64,000 nucleotides of DNA, taken from Candidatus Poribacteria bacterium (GTDB lineage Bacteria > Poribacteria > WGA-4E > WGA-3G). Positions 4,244-50,552 of the stretch are shown here, in pieces. The stretch lies in contig OZ246958.1 of the NCBI GenBank assembly GCA_965232115.1, positions 52,481 through 116,480 of the forward strand, read 5' to 3'. The position numbers were made by a program, and so were the translations under genes. A model generated the notes under the pieces. The model had not been told where the DNA came from and did no database searches. It was given only the letters and a program-made list of their open reading frames with translations. Each line of letters starts with the position of its first letter. Position 1 is the first letter of the stretch.

Positions 4244-4840
4244 CTATAAGAGATATACCAATACGTAAAGAATCGGCCAGAGCGCGACAACAAAAATCCA
4301 ATAGATGGTGCAGGTATCAACGCCGACGTAACGTTCGGCGGAGAAACGCCCTGCAACTGCCATACCGTAAACGACCAGTAGCCATATAACAGCCGTTAGC
4401 ACATGAAGTGCATGGCATCCAATGAGTACATAAAAAATACCGCCGTATACACCCGATTGGAGCGTAAGCCCATTCCGAATGAGTTGCACCCATTCACTGC
4501 CCTGTACACCGAGAAATAGGACTCCCAACACACCTGTGATGAGAAGCCAACGCCGAAGCTGCTTCACCTGATCCCGCTGAATCGCACGATGCGCTTGGAA
4601 CATTGTGTAACCGCTCAGTAGCAGCAGTGCGGTATTGATACCAGTTATCATACGTGGGAGCTCAATCCCGATATGTGACGGTGGGGGCCAGGTAACATTT
4701 CCGACCCGAAACACAAGAAATGCCCCGATGAGCCCTGAGAACAGCATTGTCTCCGCACCGAGTAGGACTAAAACGGCTAATCGTGCGTTGCTTAGGGGTG
4801 GACGTTCACGAACTTCAACGTTATTCTGCGCCATTTTCAC
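4244..4840 (-). CDS. Second haem-copper oxidase subunit III family protein
   Basis: 198 aa, five TM helices. Motifs FYVLIGCHALHV and YWIFVVALW are paralogous to ctaE. Confidence 0.75.
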   Translation of the reverse strand: MKMAQNNVEVRERPPLSNARLAVLVLLGAETMLFSGLIGAFLVFRVGNVTWPPPSHIGIELPRMITGINTALLLLSGYTMFQAHRAIQRDQVKQLRRWLLITGVLGVLFLGVQGSEWVQLIRNGLTLQSGVYGGIFYVLIGCHALHVLTAVIWLLVVYGMAVAGRFSAERYVGVDTCTIYWIFVVALWPILYVLVYLL

Positions 4841-5075
4841 GTACCCGTCTCTTTACAATCCGAAGGACAATTTCAATGACCGCCACGAGAACAAGAAACG
4901 CCCCAATGATCCCCAGAACTGGCGTTTTAATGCTTTCCATCGCGCCTTCAACAGTAGGCGGTACTTTGCTACCCGTAATCATTACCCGCGTTGCGATGAT
5001 AAATAGCGCAACAAATAGCAGAGATAAAATAATACCAAGGCGACGATTTCGTTTGCGATGCTCTGGCGCGTTCAT
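4821..5075 (-). CDS. Small two-TM membrane protein, unknown function
   Basis: 84-aa ORF with two hydrophobic helices. Packed between ctaB and the CoxIII-like gene, with which it overlaps by 20 nt. Confidence 0.35.
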   Translation of the reverse strand: MNAPEHRKRNRRLGIILSLLFVALFIIATRVMITGSKVPPTVEGAMESIKTPVLGIIGAFLVLVAVIEIVLRIVKRRVRENGAE

Positions 5076-5088
5076 TTTATGTCAATTC

Positions 5089-6012
5089 CTAAATTTTATC
5101 CAATGCCATCGTGATAAATACCACCGGCAGATAGAGCAGTGAGGCGTACAACACATAACGTGCGGCTTTCACCGAGCGTGTACGCGACAAATAGATACCA
5201 ACTCCCAGAAACGCCAATCCAGATACCAGTGCCGTAAAGAAATAGATGCTACCAGCGACACCGTACAACGTCGGTAATAAACCTATACCGAGGAGTGCGA
5301 CGCAATTCACCACAATTTGGCGACCCGTACTCGCGCCATCGGGATGAATGACGGGTAACAGACGGAATCCGGCTTTTGCGTAATCCTCACGATAGATATA
5401 AGCGATTGCGAGCGAGTGTGGTAGTTGCCACAAAAAGAGTATCGTAAAGAGCACCCACGCTTCACCAGTCAACGAACCACGTGCCGCGACCCAACCGACC
5501 ACAGGCGGAAGCGCGCCCGGCACTGCACCAATGAGCGTACACAACGAGGTCTTCCGTTTAAGCGGCGTATAGAGAAACAGGTAACTCACAACTATCAGCG
5601 AGATAACAAAGCCGCTCAGGACGTTGACAATAAACGTCAGATAAAGCATCCCGCTACCCGTAAAAACAGCTCCAATAAGCAGTGCTGTCAACGGACCCAT
5701 CCTACCATCAGGGATTGGTCTTTCCTGTGTCCGTTCCATCAGTGCGTCCGCATCGCGTTCAAGGTATTGGTTAAGGCCTAAGACCCCTGCTGCTGTTAAT
5801 CCTGCACCGATCAGCGTATGCAAGCACCGAAGCCACTCGAAAGTCCGTGCACCGAGATAGAAACCTGCAGCGGTGGTAATGAGTATCATCACGACCAGTC
5901 GCGGTTTGCTGAGTTCAATCACATCGGCGATGCGCTGCACAAAAGTTGCATGCTTGGACGATGGGTTTGCTGTATTACTACTTTCTGGTAATGTCGCTGT
6001 TGTTGAACGCAT
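5089..6012 (-). CDS. ctaB: Protohaem IX farnesyltransferase (haem O synthase)
   Basis: UbiA-family polytopic protein. Motif NQYLERDADALMERTQERP matches the N..D.D..M.RT..RP signature. Confidence 0.9.
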   Translation of the reverse strand: MRSTTATLPESSNTANPSSKHATFVQRIADVIELSKPRLVVMILITTAAGFYLGARTFEWLRCLHTLIGAGLTAAGVLGLNQYLERDADALMERTQERPIPDGRMGPLTALLIGAVFTGSGMLYLTFIVNVLSGFVISLIVVSYLFLYTPLKRKTSLCTLIGAVPGALPPVVGWVAARGSLTGEAWVLFTILFLWQLPHSLAIAYIYREDYAKAGFRLLPVIHPDGASTGRQIVVNCVALLGIGLLPTLYGVAGSIYFFTALVSGLAFLGVGIYLSRTRSVKAARYVLYASLLYLPVVFITMALDKI

Positions 6013-6096
6013 CTTTTAAACTATTAAATCTGGTCACCGTTCCACTTCGTTCCACGGTGGTTTCCAATTAAGTCAACTGGATTTGGGTTATGAAAG
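6013..6096 (-). repeat. Conserved pre-start element, copy A (core CACCGTGGAACGAAGTGGAACGGTG on the coding strand)
   Basis: Core at 6035-6059. A shared flank ttatgaaag lies 29 nt away, as in copy B. The element ends ~22 nt upstream of the ctaB ATG. Confidence 0.7.
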
Positions 6097-6156
6097 ATCG
6101 CTTACAAATTTTGTATTGTTCAGTACCCTTACTGCTGTTGAATACGTTATCTTATC

Positions 6157-7092
6157 TCACTCTGTAACGAATGCCCTGCTCGTAGGTGCATCGACAGGGA
6201 CCGAGGCATCGGTGAACCTGTAAATCTTCAGGGTTAGGACAAAACTACTCACTAACATAAGTGCCCCGACCGCGACGTGCGCGGTCGTGATTGTCACCGT
6301 GAGCCCAGTTGCGAACGTTTCTCCCAAAGCCGTAAGTTTCGCGAAGAACGCCCCAGTACCGAGCATCAACTGGACCGCCAGCAGTCCGAGTAGTCCGAAT
6401 GCCATTGATGCAGCACTCTTCTGTGTCTCATGATTTGTGCCAAGGATACGCCTCGCCAACAAGAAGATATGTAGTGTGACCAAGAAGGCAAAAAGTAGAT
6501 GCATATCAAGTCTGCTTCCGGTATGTCGTAAAACCGCTCCAAAGATGAGTTGCACATAGATGAGGCATGTCGTAATCAGGCTTAACCGTCTCAATTTCTG
6601 TGCTGCGACGATTGGGGCTGCAGGCTTCTCTTGCCACCAGTCGCGAGAAGTGAACCACGCAATCCCACAGAGGAGCGCGAAAAATGCTTGTGCGAGACAG
6701 GCATGTACGATTGCGAAGTTGCGATTAATCTGCGTGACTCGAAGTCCACCGAGAACGCCTTGTACAACGACGGCGATGAGTGCAATGAGTCCGAGCCATT
6801 TCAGCCACTTACGGGAATCTCTTGCGAATATAAAGACTAACAGCCCAACAGTTAATATCCCAACGAGGGATCCCATGAGTCGATGGCTATGTTCATACAG
6901 AATGCCGCCTACCATTTCCGACAACGGATAGAGGAACATATTGTACCCGAAGGTTGTTGGCCAATCGGGTACAGCCAATCCAGAGTCGGTGCTTGTAACG
7001 ATCCCGCCGATAACAATCAACAGGAACGTCGCGCCTGCGGTGAGACGTGCCAATCTGTGTAGCCATGGGTTATAACTCACGTGTTGCTCCAT
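6157..7092 (-). CDS. ctaA: Haem A synthase (COX15/CtaA)
   Basis: Eight TM helices with conserved His pairs (YEHSHRLMG, VHACLAQ, LRHTG, TTAHVAVG). Start moved to MEQHVSYNPW because the upstream 30 codons are translated low-complexity repeat. Confidence 0.85.
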   Translation of the reverse strand: MEQHVSYNPWLHRLARLTAGATFLLIVIGGIVTSTDSGLAVPDWPTTFGYNMFLYPLSEMVGGILYEHSHRLMGSLVGILTVGLLVFIFARDSRKWLKWLGLIALIAVVVQGVLGGLRVTQINRNFAIVHACLAQAFFALLCGIAWFTSRDWWQEKPAAPIVAAQKLRRLSLITTCLIYVQLIFGAVLRHTGSRLDMHLLFAFLVTLHIFLLARRILGTNHETQKSAASMAFGLLGLLAVQLMLGTGAFFAKLTALGETFATGLTVTITTAHVAVGALMLVSSFVLTLKIYRFTDASVPVDAPTSRAFVTE

Positions 7093-39506: not shown

Positions 39507-40316
39507 CTACTTCGTCTGTACCTTTTTGGATTTGTTTTCTGGGCCACTATTGCATTTGCGAAGCCGTTCATTCGCCGTTTTTACAAAACCCGGTTCACCC
39601 TCGAATCCGATGAAATCCCGCTGATGGCGTTTACACACAACAGGACAAGTACCCACACCTGCAAACGGGTCTAAAACCAAATCCCCCGGTGATGAACTCG
39701 CGAAGACAATCCGCTCAATCAACTTTTCGGGTTTCTGGATTGTGTTGAGTGCCTTTCGATTTACCAATTCCTTCGACTTATAGGTTAACTGTTTTATATC
39801 TCCCCAAACGTCGCCAGGATTTTTCCCTTTCGGATTATATTTCGTCTTGCTAAATCTACCGTTGGTCACAGACGGCACATTTTCACACCGATTCCGATGC
39901 TCCAATTCAACAAGTTGTGCGACCCTAATGGCATCAAGGTTGTAGCACTGTGGTCTTTTCCCCTTGATGAAGTAACAGATGATGTCATAATTATTGGTGT
40001 AACTGATGCGTCCTTGTGCGAGCCGGCTCGGTTGATACCACACAATTTTTGAACGAAGGTTTAAAAACTGACGGTAGTCTATAAAGTCAATGCAGTCCGG
40101 TTTTCCAAATAGATAAAGTGCGCCACCGTCCTTAAGTTTCGGTGTAAAGCGTTCAATGAGTTTGAGATTAAATTCTTGAATTGAGGTAATCCTGTCCCAC
40201 GGTTCATCCGTTATGCCATAAGGTCCATCACAGACAATCAGATCCACAGAGGCATCTTCTATCTCCTTGAGTAGACGAAACGTGTCGCCACAATGGATGG
40301 TATTGCGTTCAAGCAT
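39507..40316 (-). CDS. Beta-class N6A/N4C DNA methyltransferase (N4/N6 MTase family)
   Basis: Catalytic CDGPYG (DPPY-like) lies N-terminal to the AdoMet motif VLDPFAGVGT. No adjacent endonuclease. Confidence 0.85.
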   Translation of the reverse strand: MLERNTIHCGDTFRLLKEIEDASVDLIVCDGPYGITDEPWDRITSIQEFNLKLIERFTPKLKDGGALYLFGKPDCIDFIDYRQFLNLRSKIVWYQPSRLAQGRISYTNNYDIICYFIKGKRPQCYNLDAIRVAQLVELEHRNRCENVPSVTNGRFSKTKYNPKGKNPGDVWGDIKQLTYKSKELVNRKALNTIQKPEKLIERIVFASSSPGDLVLDPFAGVGTCPVVCKRHQRDFIGFEGEPGFVKTANERLRKCNSGPENKSKKVQTK

Positions 40317-40349
40317 GATATAGTAAAATATAGGATAAAGGTAAGAATA

Positions 40350-40745
40350 TTATTGCGTCACCGCTGCAATTGCCATAGAGATCAAATTCATAGTTTCAGA
40401 TGATGATATCCTTCCTCGCTTCCAGAGAAACCGTTGGGTGTCAGTAGAAAGACTACGTAATTGGAGCGTATCAACTGCAGATAACTTTGTAAGTCCATTT
40501 GTGTCATCCGGCTCTAATTTTACATGCCATACATTACTCGCGAAATAATCTTTCCATTCTGTTATTGGACAAACAATAGCAATAGGTAACATGCCCACTT
40601 CGTCTGGACTCACCACGACAACAGGACGCTCGTATTTGATTTCGTTACCAATACTTCCCTGAAGATCTGCCTGCCAAATCTCCCCGCGGCTTACATAAAC
40701 AGGTGTAACCTTAGTATGTCGCACATTCATCAATAAAGTTTCCAA
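40350..40745 (-). CDS. MazF/PemK-family toxin
   Basis: Motifs RGEIWQADL...RPVVVVSPDE...AIVCPIT fit the PemK fold signature. 2-nt gap to the upstream small gene. Confidence 0.7.
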   Translation of the reverse strand: METLLMNVRHTKVTPVYVSRGEIWQADLQGSIGNEIKYERPVVVVSPDEVGMLPIAIVCPITEWKDYFASNVWHVKLEPDDTNGLTKLSAVDTLQLRSLSTDTQRFLWKRGRISSSETMNLISMAIAAVTQ

Positions 40746-40747
40746 AT

Positions 40748-40987
40748 CTATAAGTCTGCTGGGGGTTCGTCAGCCATTTGTTCATAATGCTCTTTCATTT
40801 GTTCAGATTGTTGCATTAGGAGCTGACGGCGCTTCTCTAACGAAAGGCACATGAAAGCTGCTTGGGGCGACTGTTCATCTACCTCTCTGTTAACCAAATC
40901 AACCAACAGATGGTAGGCGACGGGCAACTTGGCCTTTGGGAGTTTCTTTACGAGTTGCTCTAACTGAGTATGTGTGACTGTTTTCAT
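40748..40987 (-). CDS. Putative cognate antitoxin
   Basis: 79 aa starting at MKTVTHTQ (AGGAGA RBS). Acidic C-terminus. Assigned from its position immediately upstream of the toxin. Confidence 0.5.
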   Translation of the reverse strand: MKTVTHTQLEQLVKKLPKAKLPVAYHLLVDLVNREVDEQSPQAAFMCLSLEKRRQLLMQQSEQMKEHYEQMADEPPADL

Positions 40988-41081
40988 TTTTTTTCTCCTA
41001 AGTTTTGATACATATTCATAAACCACTTCTAATTTGATGGAACTATATTACCATTTTTGAAACCTTCGATTTGCGAAGGTT

Positions 41082-42863: not shown

Positions 42864-44462
42864 CTATTTAGTCGTCGCGCTAAATCCGGTCTCTTTAACA
42901 ATATTTGCCAGGTCAGCGGCACTAACAGTATTTTTACGGACTTTAATGATTGCCTGGTCAGGGAGAGAAACTTCAACACTGATAACGTTTTGGTGATGTG
43001 AAAGTGCATCCTGCACTTTTGCGACGCAAGCCCCTCACGTCATACCCGTCACAACCAAAGCGACATCTTCGCTACCGGTTGGCTCAATCGGCACGGACAT
43101 AAAGGCGTTCAGCAATTTTCCAGAAGCCGTGTCAAATACTCGGATTTTTCCGTCAAAACCGCCTGTAGCAAGCTGTTTGCCATCGGGATGGAAAGAGACA
43201 GCAAAAACAGCAACAGTATCACCTTGCATTGTAGCGAGACGTCTCCCATCAGTTACGTTATAAATACGAGTCTCACCACTGGCACATCCAGTAGCAAGCT
43301 GATTTCCGTCTGCTGAAAATGCGACACTCTCAATGGATCCCGATTGTGCTTCATAGGCTTGAATGAGGTTAAAATCGGTATTGCCGACATCTCTTCGGAT
43401 TTCGCGAAAAATTCTGTAGAGGCGTGGTATTCGGTCTTCGCCACCGCTCAAAACTTGATCTTCGGTCGGATGCCGTGCGATGGTATTAATTTCGCCATAG
43501 CCTTTGTTACTGGAGTTGATGTCATCAACAAAAGAACCTGTATCGACCTCCACCAATTTGAGAGCAGTATCACGTCCACAGCTCACAAAATGCGATCCAT
43601 CGGTGGAAAAAACCGTACCGAAAACCCAATCGCTGTGGTTGTCGAATTTAACGAGTTCTTTTTCGTCTGCAATAGATAACACACGCACAGTCTTATCGGA
43701 GCACCCAAAGGCAACACGGCTGGCATCTGGTGAGAAAGAGAGTCCATAGACAGTATCATAACTCGAACGCAGTGCTTTGATGAGAGTCTTCGTTGCGGTA
43801 TCCCATAATTGCACTTCGCCAAACTGCCCCGGAGAGCCCCCTGCAACTCCCAATATCTTTCCATCTGCTGTATACATCAGCGATTGTATGCGATGTGCTT
43901 TACCGACCAAGCGCGCTTTAAGTTCAAAGTTGGTTGCGTCATACAATAAAACTTCACGGAATCCTGATACTGCAAGGGTACTACCATCGTGTGAATATGC
44001 AAGAGCCGAAACCACAGGCGGTACTGTGTAAGTCGGATAGTTTCCGTCCCCGAGAGCATCAATTTCGGTGGGGGTATCGTCGTGTGCGCCTTCAAGAATC
44101 CAACGGCGGAACAGTTCGACCTCTTCAGCGGAGAGCGGTTCCATGTTCTGTGGCATCGCTGGTTCGTCGCCAGAGATAAGTGTAATAAGGAGACTTTCAT
44201 CAGGTTTCCCTGGGATGATTGCCTCTCCTGCCATGCCACCGTGCTTGAGATCGGCGTAGGTCGTCACAATCAGGTCGCCGTTCGGATCACCGGGGTGATG
44301 ACAGCCTTGACAACTCCGCTTGAGAATCGGAACAATTTGTGAGTGATAACTGACTGCTGAACCGCCACCATGATTGTCCGCTGCTACCAAAGGGCTCCAC
44401 ACGACAAAACAGAGTAGATAGACCGCTAAATGCATAATAAACGCTGATCTTAATTTCTTCAT
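42864..44462 (-). CDS. PSCyt1 (planctomycete cytochrome c) - WD40 propeller - HMA domain protein; candidate selenoprotein with in-frame TGA at 43037-43035
   Basis: The 475-aa ORF ends ...VALVVTGMT-TGA. The same frame continues GACVAKVQDAL...GFSATTK-TAG. Together these form a complete HMA fold with TGA at the first Cys position of GMTCxxC. N-terminal CQGCH and ...FRRWILEGA. Confidence 0.6.
43001..43019 (-). promoter_or_regulatory. SECIS-like hairpin AAAGUGCA-GGA-UGCACUUU
   Basis: Perfect 8-bp stem beginning 15 nt 3' of the in-frame UGA, with a G-rich apical loop about 23 nt from the UGA. Confidence 0.45.
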
Positions 44463-44708: not shown

Positions 44709-45329
44709 ATGAAAACAGACTTAGGACGCATCCGACAGATTTCCTATATTGGAGGTCTCGTTTTAGCGTTACTCATCATCGGTTTTACTGGCAGCACACA
44801 ACTCGCAGATGCAGCGGATACTTATGAAATAGACACGGCGCACTCCATGATACTTTTCCGTGCAAAACATAATGGCATCACTTACAACTACGGCAGATTT
44901 AACGAGTTCACCGGCAAAATCACAATGGATGAAACCGATATATCCAAAAGCATGGTAGAATTTGAAGTAAAAACAGCGAGTGTTGACACTGCCAATGAAA
45001 AACGCGACCAACACCTGAGAAGCCCTGACTTTTTCAGCGCGAAGCAGTTTCCCGTTATCACCTTCAAAAGCACAAAGGTGAATATGAAGGAAGGCGAAGA
45101 AGACATGCTGGAGGTCACAGGCGATTTGGAGCTACTCGGTGTTAAAAAATCTATCACAGTAGATGTCGCAATTACAGGAAAAGGCAAAGGGAGACAGGGC
45201 GAATCTTTGATCGGGTTTGAGAGCGTCTTTACGATTAACCGAAGCGAATTCGGAATGACCTATGGCGTTGGCGGACCTGTCAGTGACGACATTCGTCTTA
45301 TTGTCACCATCGAAGCGAAGCAAAAATAG
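44709..45329 (+). CDS. YceI family periplasmic protein
   Basis: Signal peptide. Motifs YEIDTAHS...F...H.G......G.F..F.G.I and FP.ITF.S are characteristic of YceI. Confidence 0.85.
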   Translation: MKTDLGRIRQISYIGGLVLALLIIGFTGSTQLADAADTYEIDTAHSMILFRAKHNGITYNYGRFNEFTGKITMDETDISKSMVEFEVKTASVDTANEKRDQHLRSPDFFSAKQFPVITFKSTKVNMKEGEEDMLEVTGDLELLGVKKSITVDVAITGKGKGRQGESLIGFESVFTINRSEFGMTYGVGGPVSDDIRLIVTIEAKQK

Positions 45330-45407
45330 ACATATACAACCCGATTTACTATTGGCGCGCTTAAAGAGTGCGCCACTCCCACGCAGCAAACATAAGGAGA
45401 TTCAGCG

Positions 45408-46313
45408 GTGTTACTAATTAAACAACTTCTTTTCGGTCTACTCCTACCGGCTATTGTCGGTGGTGTGATTTTTGTCATCGCGAGATCTCTTTCCCCTAAA
45501 GCTTATGCAACTGCTCGATACGAAAAAGAACAAGATGGATTTGCGGGTTGGCTTATCGCTGCCGCACTGGGTGTTGGCTACATAGTTGGCTACCTCGGCT
45601 TAGAAGGGTTGCCAGCATTTCCACCCAAGTTAGGAACCCATTGGCTCTGCTATCTCGCCATCATTGGGTTGATCGTTGCGCGTTTTTGGCATCGTGCCGT
45701 GTGGGGTCCGATAGCACAGATAGTAATCTCTATTATTATCCCGCGCCTCCTTCTAACTTCAACATTTAAACATACATGGGGCCCCATTGAAGGGATTATC
45801 TGGTGGGTGTGCCTCGCTGTCGTTATTTTTATTATCTGGCATCTCGTGGAACAGAGTTTTAGTGCGTTACCCTCTGGCGCATCCGGTCCGTTTGTCTACT
45901 TTGGACTCTCTGGCGGGACGGCTTTGATTCTCGCACTTTCAGGAAGTTTGCGACTGGCACAACATTGTGGGATTTTAGTGGCACTTTTCGCGGCGAGTTG
46001 GATTCTTACACTTGGTCTGCAGCGGGACAGGAAGCCGTTCGTTTTTCCACACGGTGCCTCGCCAGTCGTGACACTCCTACTTATTGGCATCTGGATGAAC
46101 GGTTACTTTTTTGCGGAAGTGCCAGCAGTGAGTGCTATCCTGTTGGCAGTTTCACCGCTTTTGGCACAAGTTGGGCGGATAGCGTCAGTTCAGGGGCTTG
46201 GTGGGTGGCGTTCTACGTTTGCCCAAATAGCAGCTGTTGCCCTCCCAGTCCTTATAGCTATAGGTATTGCCGTTATCCGTTCTGGCTTATTGGGTGAGAA
46301 CAGCGGTTACTAA
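45408..46313 (+). CDS. Polytopic membrane protein, unknown function
   Basis: GTG start with an AAGGAGA RBS. About 8 TM helices. Confidence 0.5.
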   Translation: MLLIKQLLFGLLLPAIVGGVIFVIARSLSPKAYATARYEKEQDGFAGWLIAAALGVGYIVGYLGLEGLPAFPPKLGTHWLCYLAIIGLIVARFWHRAVWGPIAQIVISIIIPRLLLTSTFKHTWGPIEGIIWWVCLAVVIFIIWHLVEQSFSALPSGASGPFVYFGLSGGTALILALSGSLRLAQHCGILVALFAASWILTLGLQRDRKPFVFPHGASPVVTLLLIGIWMNGYFFAEVPAVSAILLAVSPLLAQVGRIASVQGLGGWRSTFAQIAAVALPVLIAIGIAVIRSGLLGENSGY

Positions 46314-46466
46314 TGAGCGAACAAGTAACCATGGCAGTTTGTCTAAATATTTAAGGGTGACTTTGTAAATAGCAGTACCTTCGGAGAGAAGCGGTTTGTT
46401 TGGCAGTGAAAAAAGATTTGATCACCCTCTCGGTTGGAATAAAAGAACAAACATTTGGAGGCAAAA

Positions 46467-49400
46467 ATGGGTTTGGTACGTAATTTAAACTTTCCTATCA
46501 TAGCATTCCTGCTTGGTATCTTGATCTTGTTCAACGGTTGTGTGAAGATGGAAGCGACCCGGAAAGCGGATTGGGAGACACACTTCACAGATTTGCACTT
46601 CGTCAATCATAAACTTGGATGGATCGTCGGAGAACAAGGACTGATCATTCATACCGCAGATGGCGGTGAAACGTGGAAGCAACAAGAAGTTGACACAACA
46701 AGCGTTGGATATCGCATGCCCGATGCTTCCTTAGACTTCAAGGCGATCTACTTTACCAATGCAAACTACGGATGGGCGGTCGGTGATGAAGGGTTAATTG
46801 CGACAACCGATGACGGTGGTAAACATTGGACCTTACAACGGAGCGGCACTTCAGCGATGCTCCTTGATGTCTATTTTGCTAATTCAAAAGAAGGTTGGAT
46901 TGTTGGAGAAGATTCGGACGTTCTTTATACCAAAAACGGCGGAAAAGAGTGGAAACGTTACGAGTACGTCAGCGAGTTTATGCTCAATGGTGTCTGGTTC
47001 GTTGATGATTCAAGAGGATGGGTCGTCGGCACTCACGATAGGATTTTTCACACCCAAACAGGTGGTGAGGCGTGGCGGGAACAGAGCAATCGCTTTGAAG
47101 GTGAACGCGATCGGATGATTAATGACAATAAACAGGTCTTCTTCGTTAGCGACAATGAAGGTTGGATTGTTGGCAGCGATGGCTCCATTTTTCATACAAC
47201 CACGGGTGGTATAAACTGGGAACGTCAAGATAGCCGTATCCCTCTTATTAATGGACACGTCCGAGATACCATCAATAGTATCCATTTCACAGATGAAAAC
47301 TACGGAGTTGCTGTAGCGGATGTCGGCTTTATTACCCGTACCCAAGACGGTGGCGACAATTGGCAATTGATGGAAAGCGGTACTGAAAATAATTTGACGG
47401 GGGTCCAGTTCACTACACCGACAGAGGCGTGGGCTGTTGGATGGTACGGTACTATTTTACGCACAGCGGACGCCGGTGCGACATGGGAAATGACCAGCGG
47501 TACGACTGCCAACGATCTGCAGAATGTCCAGTTTACGAATGCGAATCGCGCCATCGCAGTCGGTAGGCGCGGGACGATGGCAATGAGTGAGGATGGGGGT
47601 CAGACATGGAACGAAATTGAGACAGATATTTGGGATGGTATCTGGAACATCTATTTCGCGACCGACAAACACGGATGGGCGGTTGGTGAACGCGGGCTTG
47701 TTGTCCACACCAGCGATGGCGGTATAAACTGGGAACGTCAGCGTAGCAATTCGGCATTCACGCTCCGTTCCGTCCACTTTATTAGCCCGCAAGTCGGTTG
47801 GACTGTCGGAGATATGGGAAGCATTTTACATACAATTGACGGTGGGCAAACGTGGCTTCCGCAGACCGCCGTTGGCGATTTCCTCTCCCTCATGCTAAAA
47901 GGGGTATTTTTCCTTGATGACAAGAAGGGGTGGGCTATCGGATGGCCGGGTGTTTGTCTGGCAACCGAGGATGGCGGTCTGAGCTGGACGCAGCAGGATA
48001 CCGGTACCTTCAATGAACTCTACGCTGTTTACTTCACAGATGAAAATACAGGATGGATTATCGGACAGTTCGGCGAGATTCTGCATACAAAGAACGGCGG
48101 CAAAAAGTGGAGTTTCCAACGCAGCAGGACACAAGAGAATCTAAATAAACTCTATTTCGCCGATGCACAGCACGGATTAATCGTCGGTGATAACGGTGTG
48201 ATGCTCACGACCGTCAACGGCGGGGCACAGTGGGAGCTTCAAGAGAGCGGCACCGATAACGACCTCTACGGGTTAGCTTTATCACCGGATGGCGTTGTAG
48301 CAGTCGGTAAGGGCGGAATTGCGATGCGTTACTCTGTTGAAGAGGCAGAATTGCCAGCCAAATTGCCACCGGTTGCCGAAGAGACGGAGGTTATTGTAAC
48401 TGCTGAAGAAGATACCCCTATTGAACCTATTGTCTACCATTGGGACATTCTCCGACAGGCAACATGGAGAACTGACTTTGCGGATGTCCACTTTATAGAT
48501 GCACAAAACGGATGGGCGGTCGGTTCGGACGGTGCAATCGCACACACCACAGATGGCGGAAAAACATGGTTCCCCCAACATAGCGGGGTTAATGAAAATC
48601 TGCAAGAAGTTGAATTCAGTGATGAGAAACACGGACGTGTTCTTGGTGCCGGATTTTTACTTCAGACCAAAGATGGTGGCGAAACGTGGCAGCCGATGCT
48701 CCAAGCAACCAAACAAAATCTTCCACGTGTTAGTATGATGCACTTCCTAAATGCTGAAGAGGGTTGGCTTGGAGCCAGAATTGGGGAAATTTTACACACG
48801 ACTGATAGTGGGAAAACGTGGAAAATCCAAAAAACTGGAACGACAACGGCAAGTATCACCGACATTCATTTCATCAATAGTCAGGTTGGATGGGCTGTCA
48901 CGCCCCAACGTCGAGATGGCGGGTTTATCCTCCACACTGTTGACGGCGGCGATTATTGGAAGATTCAGGCGAAGACAAACCAACCTGGTGTTGCTGTTTA
49001 TTTTGGTGATGAAAACCACGGTTGGGTGGTCCTTGGCAACGGCAACTCTTTATTGACGGAAGACGGTGGCGAAACGTGGAGACTGCAAACCACGACCCAA
49101 AGCACAAGCGGCTTGCGCCGTATCACCTTCCGTTCTAATACAGCGGCTTATGCACTCGGTGGCCGTGGTGCTTATGTCACCGAAGATCAGGGATTGACAT
49201 GGAAAACTGTTCCTGTTGATACGGGAGAAAATGCAGCTGATAATAGGGGCGCTATGGAAGAATTCAACCCGTTTTTATCCGAGGAATCCCAATTAGAATC
49301 TGAAGAACCCAAAGAAGCAGAAGAAGAGGTAGCAGAGGGACCGACGTTAACCTACGACGAGACACCAGAGGAAATCCAAAACAGGCTTCGCGCAGAGTGG

Positions 49401-50552
49401 CAACGCCCAGGTCGCCTCGCACCTGAGGGCGAACTTCCCCCTAACGCCGAACGCGCCACACCGTCACCGGAATCCGCACAGCAACAACCGCCGCCTCCAC
49501 CCGAACCTGAAGGACGCAGAAGGGGAAGAGGGAGTCGCCGAGTCGCCAATGTGTATTTCCTTGATGCAGAACTTGCATGGGCGGTCGGCAGTGGGGGTAG
49601 TATTTTCCACACGACAGACGGCGGACAGACGTGGGAACGTCAACTCGGCGAATCGGAACGTAACGACTTCCGAGAAGTCCTCTTCTACGACGACAAAAAC
49701 GGTTGGATAGCTGGAGATGGTGGTATTTTATTGGAAACCCAAGACGGTGGAGAGACTTGGGATTCACTTCCAAGCCGAACGCGTCAACGCCTGATCGGTA
49801 TACACTTCGCCAGTCTCGAACCGAAATGGGGTTGGACGATGCAACGCGACGGAACCGTCCTCTACACGACAGACGGCGCAGCGTGGACAGCAGGGGACAC
49901 CCCCGAACAACCGCCATTTATGGAAGGCGATTCTCCGGGAACCTTCTCGCTGAACGATGTTGACTTCGGTAAGTTTTCTGAAGGGTGGGCGGTCGGTAGA
50001 CTCGGATACATTATCCACAACAAAGACGGGGGGCCGACGTGGACACCTCAACGCACGACTGCTAACGACACCCTTACGGACGTAGATATGAAATTCGCGC
50101 CGCTCGGGTGGGCGGTCGGACAAGCCGGCGTGACCCAACGCACCATCAATGGTGGTGAGTACTGGCGGCTTCACGAAACGAAAATTAAGTACGATCTCAA
50201 TGCCGTCTCATTCATTGCTAAACGGACTGGATGGGCGGCTGGTGAGGCTGGTATTATCTTGAAGACGAGGGATGGCGGTTTCAATTGGGAGCCGAAAACG
50301 ACCGGCATTAACAAAACGCTCCACGGTATCCTCGCACTTTCTGAACAGGAAATCTATGCAGTCGGTGAAGCGGGTATAATTATCCGCTCAACCGATGGCG
50401 GCGAAACGTGGGAACAGGAACACACCGATATTGATAACAACCTTTATGTGATTACGCGTTCCAAAGATGGTAAAGCGTTGTGGGTTGTTGGACAGTGGGG
50501 TGTCGTCCTCCGCCGGACGTTAGAGACACAGGAACAGATGTCAATGCGGTAA
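46467..50552 (+). CDS. Giant BNR/Ycf48-like repeat lipoprotein (multiple beta-propellers)
   Basis: Lipobox LFNGC. About 26 (T/S)xDGGxTW-type BNR motifs. Acidic and Pro-rich linker (QQQPPPPPEPEGRRRGRGSRR) before the last propeller block. ATG 46467 follows GGAGG. Confidence 0.75.
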   Translation: MGLVRNLNFPIIAFLLGILILFNGCVKMEATRKADWETHFTDLHFVNHKLGWIVGEQGLIIHTADGGETWKQQEVDTTSVGYRMPDASLDFKAIYFTNANYGWAVGDEGLIATTDDGGKHWTLQRSGTSAMLLDVYFANSKEGWIVGEDSDVLYTKNGGKEWKRYEYVSEFMLNGVWFVDDSRGWVVGTHDRIFHTQTGGEAWREQSNRFEGERDRMINDNKQVFFVSDNEGWIVGSDGSIFHTTTGGINWERQDSRIPLINGHVRDTINSIHFTDENYGVAVADVGFITRTQDGGDNWQLMESGTENNLTGVQFTTPTEAWAVGWYGTILRTADAGATWEMTSGTTANDLQNVQFTNANRAIAVGRRGTMAMSEDGGQTWNEIETDIWDGIWNIYFATDKHGWAVGERGLVVHTSDGGINWERQRSNSAFTLRSVHFISPQVGWTVGDMGSILHTIDGGQTWLPQTAVGDFLSLMLKGVFFLDDKKGWAIGWPGVCLATEDGGLSWTQQDTGTFNELYAVYFTDENTGWIIGQFGEILHTKNGGKKWSFQRSRTQENLNKLYFADAQHGLIVGDNGVMLTTVNGGAQWELQESGTDNDLYGLALSPDGVVAVGKGGIAMRYSVEEAELPAKLPPVAEETEVIVTAEEDTPIEPIVYHWDILRQATWRTDFADVHFIDAQNGWAVGSDGAIAHTTDGGKTWFPQHSGVNENLQEVEFSDEKHGRVLGAGFLLQTKDGGETWQPMLQATKQNLPRVSMMHFLNAEEGWLGARIGEILHTTDSGKTWKIQKTGTTTASITDIHFINSQVGWAVTPQRRDGGFILHTVDGGDYWKIQAKTNQPGVAVYFGDENHGWVVLGNGNSLLTEDGGETWRLQTTTQSTSGLRRITFRSNTAAYALGGRGAYVTEDQGLTWKTVPVDTGENAADNRGAMEEFNPFLSEESQLESEEPKEAEEEVAEGPTLTYDETPEEIQNRLRAEWQRPGRLAPEGELPPNAERATPSPESAQQQPPPPPEPEGRRRGRGSRRVANVYFLDAELAWAVGSGGSIFHTTDGGQTWERQLGESERNDFREVLFYDDKNGWIAGDGGILLETQDGGETWDSLPSRTRQRLIGIHFASLEPKWGWTMQRDGTVLYTTDGAAWTAGDTPEQPPFMEGDSPGTFSLNDVDFGKFSEGWAVGRLGYIIHNKDGGPTWTPQRTTANDTLTDVDMKFAPLGWAVGQAGVTQRTINGGEYWRLHETKIKYDLNAVSFIAKRTGWAAGEAGIILKTRDGGFNWEPKTTGINKTLHGILALSEQEIYAVGEAGIIIRSTDGGETWEQEHTDIDNNLYVITRSKDGKALWVVGQWGVVLRRTLETQEQMSMR

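What the first reader, a model, noticed from the sequence alone, without database searches (positions are those of the whole stretch)
42864..43060. In-frame TGA at the first Cys of a GMTCxxC motif: candidate selenocysteine-containing HMA domain with a SECIS-like hairpin
Seen in sequence. The PSCyt1-WD40 ORF stops at ...EDVALVVTGMT-TGA (43037-43035). The same frame then stays open for 56 more codons (GACVAKVQDALSHHQNVISVEVSLPDQAIIKVRKNTVSAADLANIVKETGFSATTK, TAG at 42866-42864). Only the joined sequence gives a complete ~68-aa beta-alpha-beta-beta-alpha-beta heavy-metal-associated domain. The TGA sits exactly where the first metal-binding Cys of GMTCxxC belongs, giving U-G-A-C. Fifteen nt after the UGA is a perfect 8-bp hairpin AAAGUGCA-GGA-UGCACUUU. 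Its G-containing apical loop is ~23 nt from the UGA, which fits the geometry used to model bacterial SECIS elements. Read-through also closes an otherwise unexplained ~195-nt gap before the next gene. Established knowledge: Sec in bacterial selenoproteins almost always aligns with a redox or metal-binding Cys in homologues. Inference: this is a Sec-containing metal-binding tail on a periplasmic cytochrome c/WD40 protein. I cannot say from memory whether an HMA-type selenoprotein family is already catalogued.
Basis: partly seen in the sequence, partly recalled or inferred. Interest (0 to 1): 0.8.

Follow-up and report, generated by a model that had tools for sequence, protein, structure and literature searches.

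The report
Selenocysteine metal-binding tail in Poribacteria
The apparent stop codon is almost certainly a conserved selenocysteine codon, so a secreted cytochrome/WD40 protein of sponge-symbiont Poribacteria carries a selenium-containing metal-binding domain that every public annotation cuts off.

Summary
The minus-strand gene 44462..43035 ends ...VVTGMT-TGA. The frame then stays open for 56 codons, and the joined tail is a full HMA domain (Pfam 36.7 bits).

In 80 of 80 Poribacteria species genomes the TGA and the open 56-58-codon tail are both kept. A DNA pattern scan found 104 such sites in this family. The tail evolves as coding sequence (pN/pS 0.24).

Codons +6 to +12 form the hairpin AAAGUGCA-GGN-UGCACUU. 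Synonymous change there is about 12 times lower than in the rest of the tail. The hairpin meets the published bacterial SECIS geometry.

Five other Poribacteria species carry an uninterrupted orthologue with TGT/TGC at this codon and without the SECIS consensus.

The Sec machinery could not be searched directly. One paper's COG table lists SelA, SelB and SelD for Poribacteria WGA-3G, a genome that has this gene.

HMA-type selenoproteins are already catalogued. The new points are the PSCyt1-WD40-HMA[Sec] architecture and its spread in Poribacteria. The same module also occurs in small lipoproteins and in tandem proteins with 3-4 Sec. The metal-handling function is inferred.

The parts
42864..44462 (-). 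Complete recoded gene: signal peptide, PSCyt1 haem-c domain, WD40 propeller and HMA[Sec] domain. It encodes 532 residues including Sec476, with the true stop TAG at 42866-42864.
   Evidence: Translation. Pfam domains. The same read-through frame is open in 80 of 80 orthologues.
44379..44462 (-). Predicted N-terminal export signal (MKKLRSAFIMHLAVYLLCFVVWSPLVAA).
   Evidence: Read from the translation. This is inference: no signal-peptide predictor was run. A c-type haem motif also implies export.
44151..44312 (-). PSCyt1 (Planctomycete cytochrome c) domain. Its haem-binding motif CQGCH lies at 44312-44298.
   Evidence: Pfam PF07635 at 36.8 bits (cut-off 22), residues 51-104. The peptide CQGCHHPG was one of the six conserved peptides used as search patterns to find orthologues.
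43098..44006 (-). WD40 beta-propeller.
   Evidence: Pfam WD40 and several beta-propeller models, residues about 153-455.
42867..43070 (-). Heavy-metal-associated (HMA) domain spanning the UGA. The motif is GMT-U-GA-C.
   Evidence: Pfam HMA at 36.7 bits for the joined sequence. Matches to CopZ, MerP and the UxxU metal-binding family in NCBIfam. PDB alignments to ATP7B, CopZ and MerP.
43035..43037 (-). In-frame UGA read as selenocysteine (residue 476), at the position of the first metal-ligand Cys.
   Evidence: TGA in 80 of 80 orthologues and at 104 main-family sites. TGT/TGC in 7 of 7 Cys-type orthologues.
43026..43028 (-). TGC codon for the second metal ligand, the Cys of U-x-x-C.
   Evidence: Cys is invariant in 80 of 80 orthologues, with TGT and TGC both used.
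43001..43019 (-). SECIS-like hairpin AAAGUGCA-GGA-UGCACUUU. The loop is at 43011-43009.
   Evidence: The 7-bp core is paired in 98% of cells across 64 distinct sequences. Synonymous divergence is 0.053 here against 0.63 in the rest of the tail. The core GUGCNGGNUGC is present at all 106 unique UGA sites; 101 of them read exactly GUGCAGGNUGCAC. Energy is -8.0 kcal/mol in context.

Best explanation
The gene 44462..42864 (minus strand) is one selenoprotein gene. UGA at 43037-43035 is decoded as selenocysteine.

Recoding mechanism. A hairpin starts 15 nt downstream of the UGA. It has a 7-8 bp stem and a GGN loop 23 nt after the UGA. It acts as a bacterial SECIS. It would recruit SelB-GTP-Sec-tRNA(Sec) to the ribosome paused at UGA, so the chain continues for 56 more residues. 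This mechanism is inferred from established knowledge of bacterial Sec insertion.

Product. The protein is exported and has three parts: a mono-haem c domain (PSCyt1), a WD40 propeller, and a C-terminal HMA domain. The metal site of the HMA domain is a selenolate-thiolate pair (GMT-U-G-A-C) in place of the usual Cys pair.

Function (inferred, about 50% confidence). The tail binds or hands over a soft metal ion such as Cu(I) or Hg(II) in the periplasm. Sec would give a site that stays deprotonated, binds soft metals more tightly, and is easier to re-reduce in an oxidising compartment. The haem domain may supply electrons.

What is shown: the conserved UGA, the coding tail under purifying selection, the conserved hairpin, the Cys orthologues and the domain identities. 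What is inferred: SelB dependence, export, the metal and the role of the haem.
For: 1. Conserved recoding. TGA followed by an open 56-58-codon frame is present in 80 of 80 Poribacteria species genomes at 72-94% aa identity. The pattern GGNATGACNTGA..TGYGT..GTGCNGGNTGC matches 116 stretches among 185,579 species genomes. By record title almost all are Poribacteria or unnamed MAGs; one is Bacterium BMS3Bbin03. 104 of the sites are in this family.
2. The tail is translated. pN/pS is 0.24, against 0.26 upstream. Variation is the third-position kind. Ungapped identity is 0.77 in the tail and 0.37 after the real stop.
3. An RNA element lies inside the coding sequence. Codons +6 to +12 have pS 0.053 against 0.63 elsewhere. 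GTG, CAG and GCA are essentially fixed although they are 4-, 2- and 4-fold degenerate. The loop codon changes amino acid (D/G/A) but keeps G..U.
4. The hairpin fits the published bSECIS model: loop of 3-9 nt, stem of 4-16 bp, G in the first two loop positions, 16-37 nt from the UGA, MFE at or below -7.5. Observed here: 3 nt, 7-8 bp, GG, 23 nt, -8.0 kcal/mol.
5. A Sec/Cys pair exists. Five Poribacteria species chromosomes and two metagenome contigs carry a full-length orthologue (about 61% identity) with TGT/TGC at the site. There the SECIS consensus is lost: GTA/GTG varies, the loop is GAA and the 3' arm is CGCGC.
6. The UGA aligns with the first Cys of GMTCxxC in solved HMA structures.
7. TGA is an ordinary stop in this genome. 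It ends 5 of 38 long ORFs in the window and is the true stop of the tail in three orthologues.
8. Poribacteria use Sec, according to the literature. Table S4 of PMC5649159 lists SelA=2, SelB=1 and SelD=1 for Ca. Poribacteria WGA-3G. That genome carries this gene (L047). Poribacteria are also among the phyla with Sec-type group 4 hydrogenases (PMC13582414).
Against: - No selA, selB, selD or tRNA-Sec was seen directly. None is in the window or in the 3.36 Mb of loci held, about 2.5 Mb of it Poribacteria. The tools cannot read whole Poribacteria genomes, so the machinery rests on one paper's COG table.
- The hairpin shows no significant covariation because it hardly varies.
- In the single window sequence its stability is ordinary: z = -0.53, and -7.3 kcal/mol for the hairpin alone.
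- bSECISearch itself was not run.
- There is no protein-level evidence such as 75Se labelling or mass spectrometry.
- Insertion of Cys at UGA by a tRNA(ReC)-type system cannot be excluded from sequence.
- The metal-handling function is inferred from domain homology only.
Confidence: 0.9

Rival explanations
1. UGA is recoded with the help of the same hairpin, but the residue inserted is cysteine (a tRNA(ReC)-like or mis-acylated tRNA(Sec) route) rather than selenocysteine.
For: PMC13582414 reports tRNA(ReC)-like tRNAs in some Sec-using MAGs and cites work showing SECIS-dependent UGA recoding by them. Nothing in the DNA distinguishes Sec from Cys insertion.
Against: More than 100 species keep UGA although a single base change gives TGY. 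One Poribacteria clade did make that change and then lost the SECIS consensus. This argues that UGA encodes something Cys cannot replace for free. SelA and SelD are reported for WGA-3G.
Confidence: 0.04
2. Translation truly stops at TGA. The 56-codon tail is a decaying remnant of a former HMA domain, or untranslated 3' sequence.
For: All gene callers and NCBI/JGI annotations end the protein at 475 aa, naming it 'hypothetical protein' or 'WD40 repeat protein'.
Against: The frame is open in 80 of 80 species. pN/pS is 0.24 and variation is mainly at third positions. Identity drops from 0.77 to 0.37 right after the real stop. Cys-type orthologues have the domain contiguous.
Confidence: 0.01
3. The tail is a separate small gene, translated from an internal start such as the invariant GTG at 43016-43014 (the 50-aa ORF 42864..43016).
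For: A GTG-initiated 50-aa ORF exists, and that GTG is invariant.
Against: Such a product would lack strand beta1 and both metal ligands (U476, C479). The tail alone is below the Pfam HMA cut-off (22.2 against 24.8 bits). The GTG invariance is explained by the hairpin, since the neighbouring CAG and GCA are equally fixed. This reading does not explain why the stop is always TGA and always at the Cys position, nor the Cys-type fusion.
Confidence: 0.01
4. The organism reads UGA as a standard amino acid throughout its genome (genetic code 4 or 25), or the TGA is a sequencing or assembly error.
For: None beyond the in-frame TGA itself.
Against: TGA ends 5 of 38 long ORFs in the window and is the true stop of the tail in L019, L063 and L076. 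More than 100 independent assemblies, many deposited as single complete chromosomes, agree on TGA.
Confidence: 0.005

Closest known systems
[quoted passage not shown] ABB15669.1)
   Same: A catalogued bacterial selenoprotein family with a UxxC motif in a heavy-metal transport protein (PMC13188914; PMC2398784). Sec replaces the first Cys of a CxxC pair.
   Different: That protein is a cytoplasmic-facing membrane pump. The protein here is an exported haem-c/WD40 protein with the HMA domain at its C-terminus. I did not verify that the ATPase's UxxC lies in its HMA domain. That is my inference from the motif.
NF041115 'UxxU_metal_bind' metal-binding (seleno)protein, NF045683 MerT/CopZ fusion-like selenoprotein, and the 'MerP' selenoprotein of the GOS survey
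   Same: These are small HMA-like selenoproteins. NF041115 is the best-scoring selenoprotein model for the tail (39.5 bits) and for the Poribacteria paralogues (47-69 bits per single domain). MerP is listed as a Sec family in PMC2398784.
   Different: Scores are far below the NF041115 cut-off of 95 bits. The motif here is UxxC, not UxxU. The architecture (PSCyt1-WD40 fusion, lipoprotein or tandem repeats) and the host phylum differ.
Cys-type HMA domains: CopZ, MerP, and the metal-binding domains of ATP7A/ATP7B
   Same: Same fold family and the same GMTCxxC loop. The tail aligns end to end with ATP7B domains, CopZ (1cpz) and MerP (1afi).
   Different: The first ligand is Sec. The domain is fused to a cytochrome/propeller protein and is predicted to be periplasmic.
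Bacterial SECIS (the E. coli fdhF type and the bSECIS consensus of Zhang and Gladyshev)
   Same: A hairpin inside the coding sequence immediately 3' of the UGA, with a small apical loop starting with G and 23 nt of spacing (criteria quoted in PMC13188914).
   Different: It is a very short element with a 3-nt loop and no bulged U, and it sits at the lower end of the stability range. Its sequence is almost invariant across paralogues, which suggests it spread together with the domain.
PSCyt1-WD40 proteins without HMA (more distant homologues, 40-51% identity)
   Same: Same signal peptide, CxxCH and propeller body, alignable over residues about 30-465.
   Different: They end a few residues after '...VPVPI'. 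They have no HMA domain and no recoded UGA. The HMA tail is found only in Poribacteria.

Membership tests
Bacterial selenoprotein gene (SelB/SECIS-dependent UGA recoding) | In-frame UGA conserved among orthologues, with conserved coding sequence on both sides | tested here: met
   80 of 80 species. 104 main-family sites. Tail pN/pS 0.24.
Bacterial selenoprotein gene (SelB/SECIS-dependent UGA recoding) | Homologues with Cys (TGY) aligned to the UGA | tested here: met
   7 of 7 Cys-type orthologues have TGT/TGC at the same codon. Solved HMA structures also align their first Cys to the UGA column.
Bacterial selenoprotein gene (SelB/SECIS-dependent UGA recoding) | bSECIS hairpin: loop 3-9 nt, upper stem 4-16 bp, G in the first two loop positions, 16-37 nt from the UGA, MFE at or below -7.5 kcal/mol | tested here: met
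   Criteria from PMC13188914. Observed: loop GGA (3 nt), 7-8 bp, 23 nt spacing. Energy is -8.0 kcal/mol in context and -7.3 alone, which is borderline. bSECISearch itself was not run.
Bacterial selenoprotein gene (SelB/SECIS-dependent UGA recoding) | Evolutionary support for the RNA structure (covariation or synonymous-site constraint) | tested here: inconclusive
   Synonymous constraint is strong (pS 0.053 against 0.63). Covariation is not significant because the stem is nearly invariant. A few flanking-pair changes are seen in paralogues.
Bacterial selenoprotein gene (SelB/SECIS-dependent UGA recoding) | The genome encodes selA, selB, selD and tRNA-Sec | not testable with these tools
   None is in the window or in the 3.36 Mb of held loci, about 2.5 Mb of it Poribacteria. 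Whole genomes cannot be read. Literature only: WGA-3G has SelA=2, SelB=1, SelD=1 (PMC5649159 Table S4).
Bacterial selenoprotein gene (SelB/SECIS-dependent UGA recoding) | Selenium shown in the protein (75Se labelling or mass spectrometry) | not testable with these tools
   The organism is uncultured and no proteomic data were available.
HMA domain (Pfam PF00403) | Score above the gathering threshold over the whole domain | tested here: met
   36.7 bits against a cut-off of 24.8, profile positions 4-61 of 62, with U written as C.
HMA domain (Pfam PF00403) | GMTCxxC metal-binding loop | tested here: met
   GMT-U-GA-C. The second Cys is invariant.
NF041115 UxxU metal-binding (seleno)protein | Score at or above the curated cut-off (95 bits) and a UxxU motif | tested here: not met
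   39.5 bits. The motif is UxxC. This is not a member; it is only the nearest selenoprotein model.
PSCyt1 (Pfam PF07635) cytochrome c domain | Score above the gathering threshold and a CxxCH haem motif | tested here: met
   36.8 bits against a cut-off of 22. CQGCH at residues 51-55.

The most novel reading that the evidence does not exclude
Poribacteria have built a family of exported selenoproteins from one portable module: an HMA domain whose helix-1 codons (..VQxAL..) double as its SECIS. The module is fused to a cytochrome/WD40 protein in about 100 species. It also occurs as single-domain lipoproteins and as tandem proteins with 3-4 selenocysteines, each UGA followed by its own hairpin. 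On this reading the phylum uses a selenium-based periplasmic system for handling soft metals. None of the papers I read or searched describes it. All 120 top database entries for the main-family protein stop at about 475 aa, and those that carry a name call it 'hypothetical protein' or 'WD40 repeat protein'.
Probability: 0.5. Interest if true: 0.7.

Novelty: new variant of a known kind. Interest (0 to 1): 0.62.

Why it matters
**Annotation.** All 120 top public entries for this protein stop at about 475 aa and so lack its metal-binding domain. The few that are named are called 'hypothetical protein' or 'WD40 repeat protein'. The other UGA-containing HMA genes found here would be cut the same way by standard gene callers, so Poribacteria selenoproteomes are likely undercounted.

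**Selenium biology.** The finding adds a well-supported, phylum-wide selenoprotein in which Sec is a metal ligand in an exported protein. It comes with a natural Sec/Cys orthologue pair and with multi-Sec tandem paralogues. That material suits the question of what Sec gains over Cys in metal binding outside the cytoplasm.

**Recoding.** The same short hairpin appears at more than 100 UGA sites in several protein architectures. This is a clear case of a SECIS travelling with the domain that encodes it.

**Sponge symbiosis.** The data point to selenium-dependent periplasmic metal handling in a dominant sponge symbiont.

Tried and rejected
- **Single-sequence folding of the UGA region.** The z-score is -0.53, which is uninformative. 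The lowest-energy fold in the window pairs the UGA itself, and that fold is not conserved in other species.
- **Rfam and tRNA scans of the window.** Nothing found.
- **Covariation tests.** I tested the 8-bp hairpin and a possible lower stem (alignment columns 10-14 with 37-41). Neither is significant, and the lower stem pairs in only 81% of cells.
- **Search for the Sec machinery.** tblastn of E. coli SelA, SelB and SelD and ARAGORN on all held loci found no hits and no tRNA-Sec. I considered scanning the genome collection with a generic tRNA-Sec or SelA/SelD pattern and dropped the idea. It would return tens of thousands of genomes, only 80 rows are listed, and Poribacteria cannot be targeted.
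- **Representative search.** With the 475-aa query, the list was dominated by giant WD40 proteins. It still showed that more distant homologues lack the HMA domain.
- **Literature.** One search was badly posed and gave nothing useful. Searches for 'heavy metal-associated' plus SECIS and for the Carboxydothermus ATPase found nothing. The supplement of PMC13582414 is not held.
- **Polarity of Sec versus Cys.** A rough NJ tree gives a three-way split (sponge Sec, pelagic Sec, Cys), so polarity is unresolved.
- **Structure prediction.** Not run. Sequence matches to Pfam and PDB already settle the fold, and the tool would not accept the joined sequence.
Full report
**1. The observation**

- A 475-codon ORF ends ...EDVALVVTGMT-TGA, with TGA at 43037-43035.
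- The same frame continues for 56 codons (GACVAKVQDALSHHQNVISVEVSLPDQAIIKVRKNTVSAADLANIVKETGFSATTK) to TAG at 42866-42864.
- With U written as C, the 68-residue junction segment matches Pfam HMA (PF00403) at 36.7 bits over profile positions 4-61 of 62. The tail alone scores 22.2 bits, below the 24.8-bit cut-off.
- Alignments to solved structures (ATP7B metal-binding domains, CopZ, MerP) put the UGA on the first Cys of GMTCxxC.
- The upstream body carries PSCyt1 (36.8 bits, CQGCH haem motif) and a WD40 propeller. It starts with a hydrophobic signal-like N-terminus.
- The hairpin AAAGUGCA-GGA-UGCACUUU lies at 43019-43001, 15 nt after the UGA. Its loop is 23 nt after the UGA.

In this one sequence the hairpin is unremarkable. 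The fold z-score is -0.53. Allowing one mismatch, the core motif occurs at least once in 18 of 100 shuffles of the window. The energy is -7.3 kcal/mol alone and -8.0 in context.

**2. Who carries it**

A protein search returned 120 top homologues at 73-93% identity. Nearly all are about 475 aa and cover 89% of the joined query, so every gene caller stopped at the same place. The names point to Candidatus Poribacteria.

Fetching the DNA from one genome per species gave 80 Poribacteria loci at 72-94% identity.
- In 80 of 80, the codon after GMT is TGA and the frame stays open for 56 codons (57 and 58 in two loci).
- The tail is conserved as U-x-x-C-V-x-K-V-Q...VSLP...KVRK...GF.A and ends in TAG, TAA or TGA.
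- An exact DNA pattern for the UGA, the second Cys and the hairpin core matched 116 stretches in the collection of 185,579 species genomes. By record title almost all are Poribacteria or unnamed MAGs; one is Bacterium BMS3Bbin03.
- 100 sites are the sponge-type gene. 4 are a pelagic Poribacteria version with a longer linker.

Assembly error and recent nonsense mutation are therefore excluded.

**3. The tail is coding and an RNA element sits inside it**

Across the 80 sequences compared (the window plus 79 orthologous loci):
- The tail has pN 0.133 and pS 0.544 (ratio 0.24). The 50 codons upstream of the UGA give 0.26.
- Ungapped nucleotide identity is 0.77 in the tail and 0.37 just after the true stop.
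- Per-codon entropies show third-position variation of 0.4-1.9 bits along the tail, except at codons +6 to +12 (AAA GTG CAG GAT GCA CTT ACA). There third positions are essentially fixed (0-0.6 bit). GTG is found in 80 of 80, CAG in 78 and GCA in 79.
- Synonymous divergence at those codons is 0.053 against 0.63 in the rest of the tail.
- The loop codon changes its amino acid (Asp, Gly or Ala) through its middle base while keeping G and U.

These seven codons are the hairpin. Its 7-bp core is paired in 98% of cells. Because it hardly varies, covariation tests are not significant, so the structural evidence is conservation and not compensation.

The element meets the published bSECIS constraints: 3-9 nt loop, 4-16 bp stem, G in the first two loop positions, 16-37 nt from the UGA, MFE at or below -7.5 (PMC13188914). 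The energy is only just within range.

**4. Sec/Cys pair**

Querying with the last propeller blade plus the HMA domain (Cys form) found two 132-aa fragments reading VVTGMTCGACVAKVQNAL....
- Their contigs encode the whole PSCyt1-WD40-HMA protein. One is interrupted only by a scaffold gap. The other has frameshifts in a 1x long-read contig.
- Five Poribacteria species chromosomes (6.3-6.9 Mb) carry an uninterrupted orthologue with about 61% identity over residues 37-530 and TGT/TGC at the site.
- Those genomes have no match to the UGA-hairpin pattern.
- In the Cys genes the Val codon alternates between GTA and GTG, the loop reads GAA and the 3' arm reads CGCGC. The SECIS consensus is gone where it is not needed.
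- More distant homologues (40-51% identity) stop a few residues after ...VPVPI and have no HMA domain at all.
- A rough tree puts the sponge-Sec, pelagic-Sec and Cys clades in an unresolved three-way split, next to the HMA-less proteins. The fusion therefore looks Poribacteria-specific, and whether Sec or Cys came first is open.

**5. Alternatives**

TGA is a normal stop here. It ends 5 of 38 long ORFs in the window and is the true stop of the tail in three orthologues. That rules out a reassigned genetic code.

A separately initiated tail (GTG at 43016) would lack both metal ligands. It also would not explain a stop fixed as TGA at the Cys position.

Cys insertion at UGA through a tRNA(ReC)-like route cannot be excluded from DNA. 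It is hard to reconcile with more than 100 species keeping UGA when one clade simply mutated to TGY.

**6. Sec machinery**

I could not test this directly. The window has no tRNA and no Rfam match. The 3.36 Mb of held loci, about 2.5 Mb of it Poribacteria, contain no SelA, SelB or SelD homologue and no tRNA-Sec. Whole genomes are not readable with these tools.

From the literature:
- Table S4 of Slaby et al. 2017 (PMC5649159) lists COG1921 SelA = 2, COG3276 SelB = 1 and COG0709 SelD = 1 for Ca. Poribacteria WGA-3G. That genome is my locus L047 and has the TGA and the tail.
- A 2026 survey lists Poribacteria among the phyla with Sec-containing group 4 hydrogenases (PMC13582414).

**7. Function**

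These points are shown:
- a haem-c motif;
- a propeller;
- an HMA domain with a Sec/Cys ligand pair;
- conserved synteny in the Sec-type loci: a sulfatase downstream in 73 of 80, and a YceI-like protein, an unknown 301-aa protein and a large BNR-repeat protein upstream in about 55 of 80.

Export is inferred from the hydrophobic N-terminus and the c-type haem motif; no signal-peptide predictor was run.

These points are inferred: a periplasmic soft-metal (Cu(I)/Hg(II)) binding or hand-over site that is hardened by selenium, possibly coupled to the haem for redox. I give this functional reading about 50%.

**8. What is known, and novelty**

HMA-type selenoproteins are already catalogued.
- The heavy-metal P-type ATPase family with UxxC, a UxxU metal-binding protein (NF041115) and a MerT-type protein appear in the 2026 review.
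- NCBIfam also holds a MerT/CopZ fusion selenoprotein model, NF045683.
- The GOS survey lists MerP and the ATPase.
- The tail scores 39.5 bits against NF041115, whose cut-off is 95, and has UxxC rather than UxxU. It is not a member.
- The review's table has no PF00403, PF07635, WD40 or sponge entry.
- Public annotations stop at about 475 aa.

I therefore rate it a new variant of a known kind.

**9. Beyond the finding**

The same U-x-x-C plus GUGCNGGNUGC core module (101 of 106 unique sites read exactly GUGCAGGNUGCAC) occurs in other exported Poribacteria proteins.
- Single-HMA lipoproteins: L195, L201, L202, L230, L253, L264.
- Tandem proteins with 3-4 Sec-HMA repeats plus one Cys repeat, each UGA followed by its own hairpin: L215, L224, L225, L257.
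- An HMA[Sec]-rhodanese fusion in an unrelated MAG: L232.

These are documented. They suggest a portable domain-plus-SECIS module.

Noticed in passing
L215 (OZ241378.1), L224 (JAPPDN010000611.1), L225 (PYIY01000077.1), L257 (CATQHZ020000001.1): These encode exported tandem-HMA proteins with 3-4 in-frame UGAs (GMT-U-GGC...) plus one Cys-type repeat (GMVCDAC). Each UGA is followed by its own GUGCAGGAUGCAC or GUGCAGGGUGCAC hairpin. Bacterial proteins with several Sec residues are uncommon. L224 also has a second such gene on the opposite strand.
   Followed up: partly
L195, L202, L201, L230, L253, L264 (Poribacteria, sponge and pelagic): These encode small proteins with a lipoprotein-type signal (..GC), a low-complexity linker and a single HMA[U-x-x-C] domain with the same hairpin. 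They look like MerP/CopZ-like periplasmic selenoproteins. L195 and L202 have a further UGA site about 590 nt upstream (U-GS-C-PPAVQDAL).
   Followed up: partly
L232 (BDTM01000136.1, Bacterium BMS3Bbin03), about 4610-5351: This is the one pattern match whose record title names something other than Poribacteria or an unnamed MAG. It encodes a signal peptide, an HMA domain with GMT-U-HSC and the same hairpin core, and a C-terminal rhodanese-like domain (..VVYCRGG..).
   Followed up: partly
L055 / L259 (PYJE01000053.1, AGPOR5), sites at about 6470 and 7484: The 3' end of the gene (last blade, UGA and tail) occurs twice, 1,014 nt apart, with a few differences. This is either a tandem partial duplication or an assembly repeat.
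   Followed up: no
window 39507-41026 (minus strand): A DNA methylase (N6_N4_Mtase, 269 aa), a PemK/MazF-type toxin (131 aa) and a 92-aa ORF just upstream of the toxin (a likely antitoxin) lie between the conserved sulfatase and a WD40 gene. The toxin and the 92-aa ORF are found in only 5-7 of 85 related loci, so they look like a small variable island.
   Followed up: partly
window 44709-50552 (plus strand): Divergently transcribed from the selenoprotein gene are three genes: a YceI-like protein (206 aa), a 301-aa protein with no Pfam match and a 1365-aa BNR/Sortilin-repeat protein. The trio is conserved upstream in about 55 of 80 Sec-type loci and absent from the 6-kb flanks of the Cys-type loci.
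   Followed up: partly
L091 (JAYGDX010000130.1, deep-sea Poribacteria MAG OC6_3000m), about 6001-6549: The same MAG that carries the Sec-type long gene (L208) also has small Cys-type HMA proteins (TGMTCGACVAKVQGAL) whose codons still form a GUGCAGGGCGCAC-like hairpin. This could be a precursor or a remnant of the SECIS.
   Followed up: no
window 43035-44462 and database entries P0001-P0120: Every public protein record for this family stops at the UGA (about 475 aa). Those that carry a name are called 'hypothetical protein' or 'WD40 repeat protein'. This is a systematic annotation truncation.
   Followed up: yes
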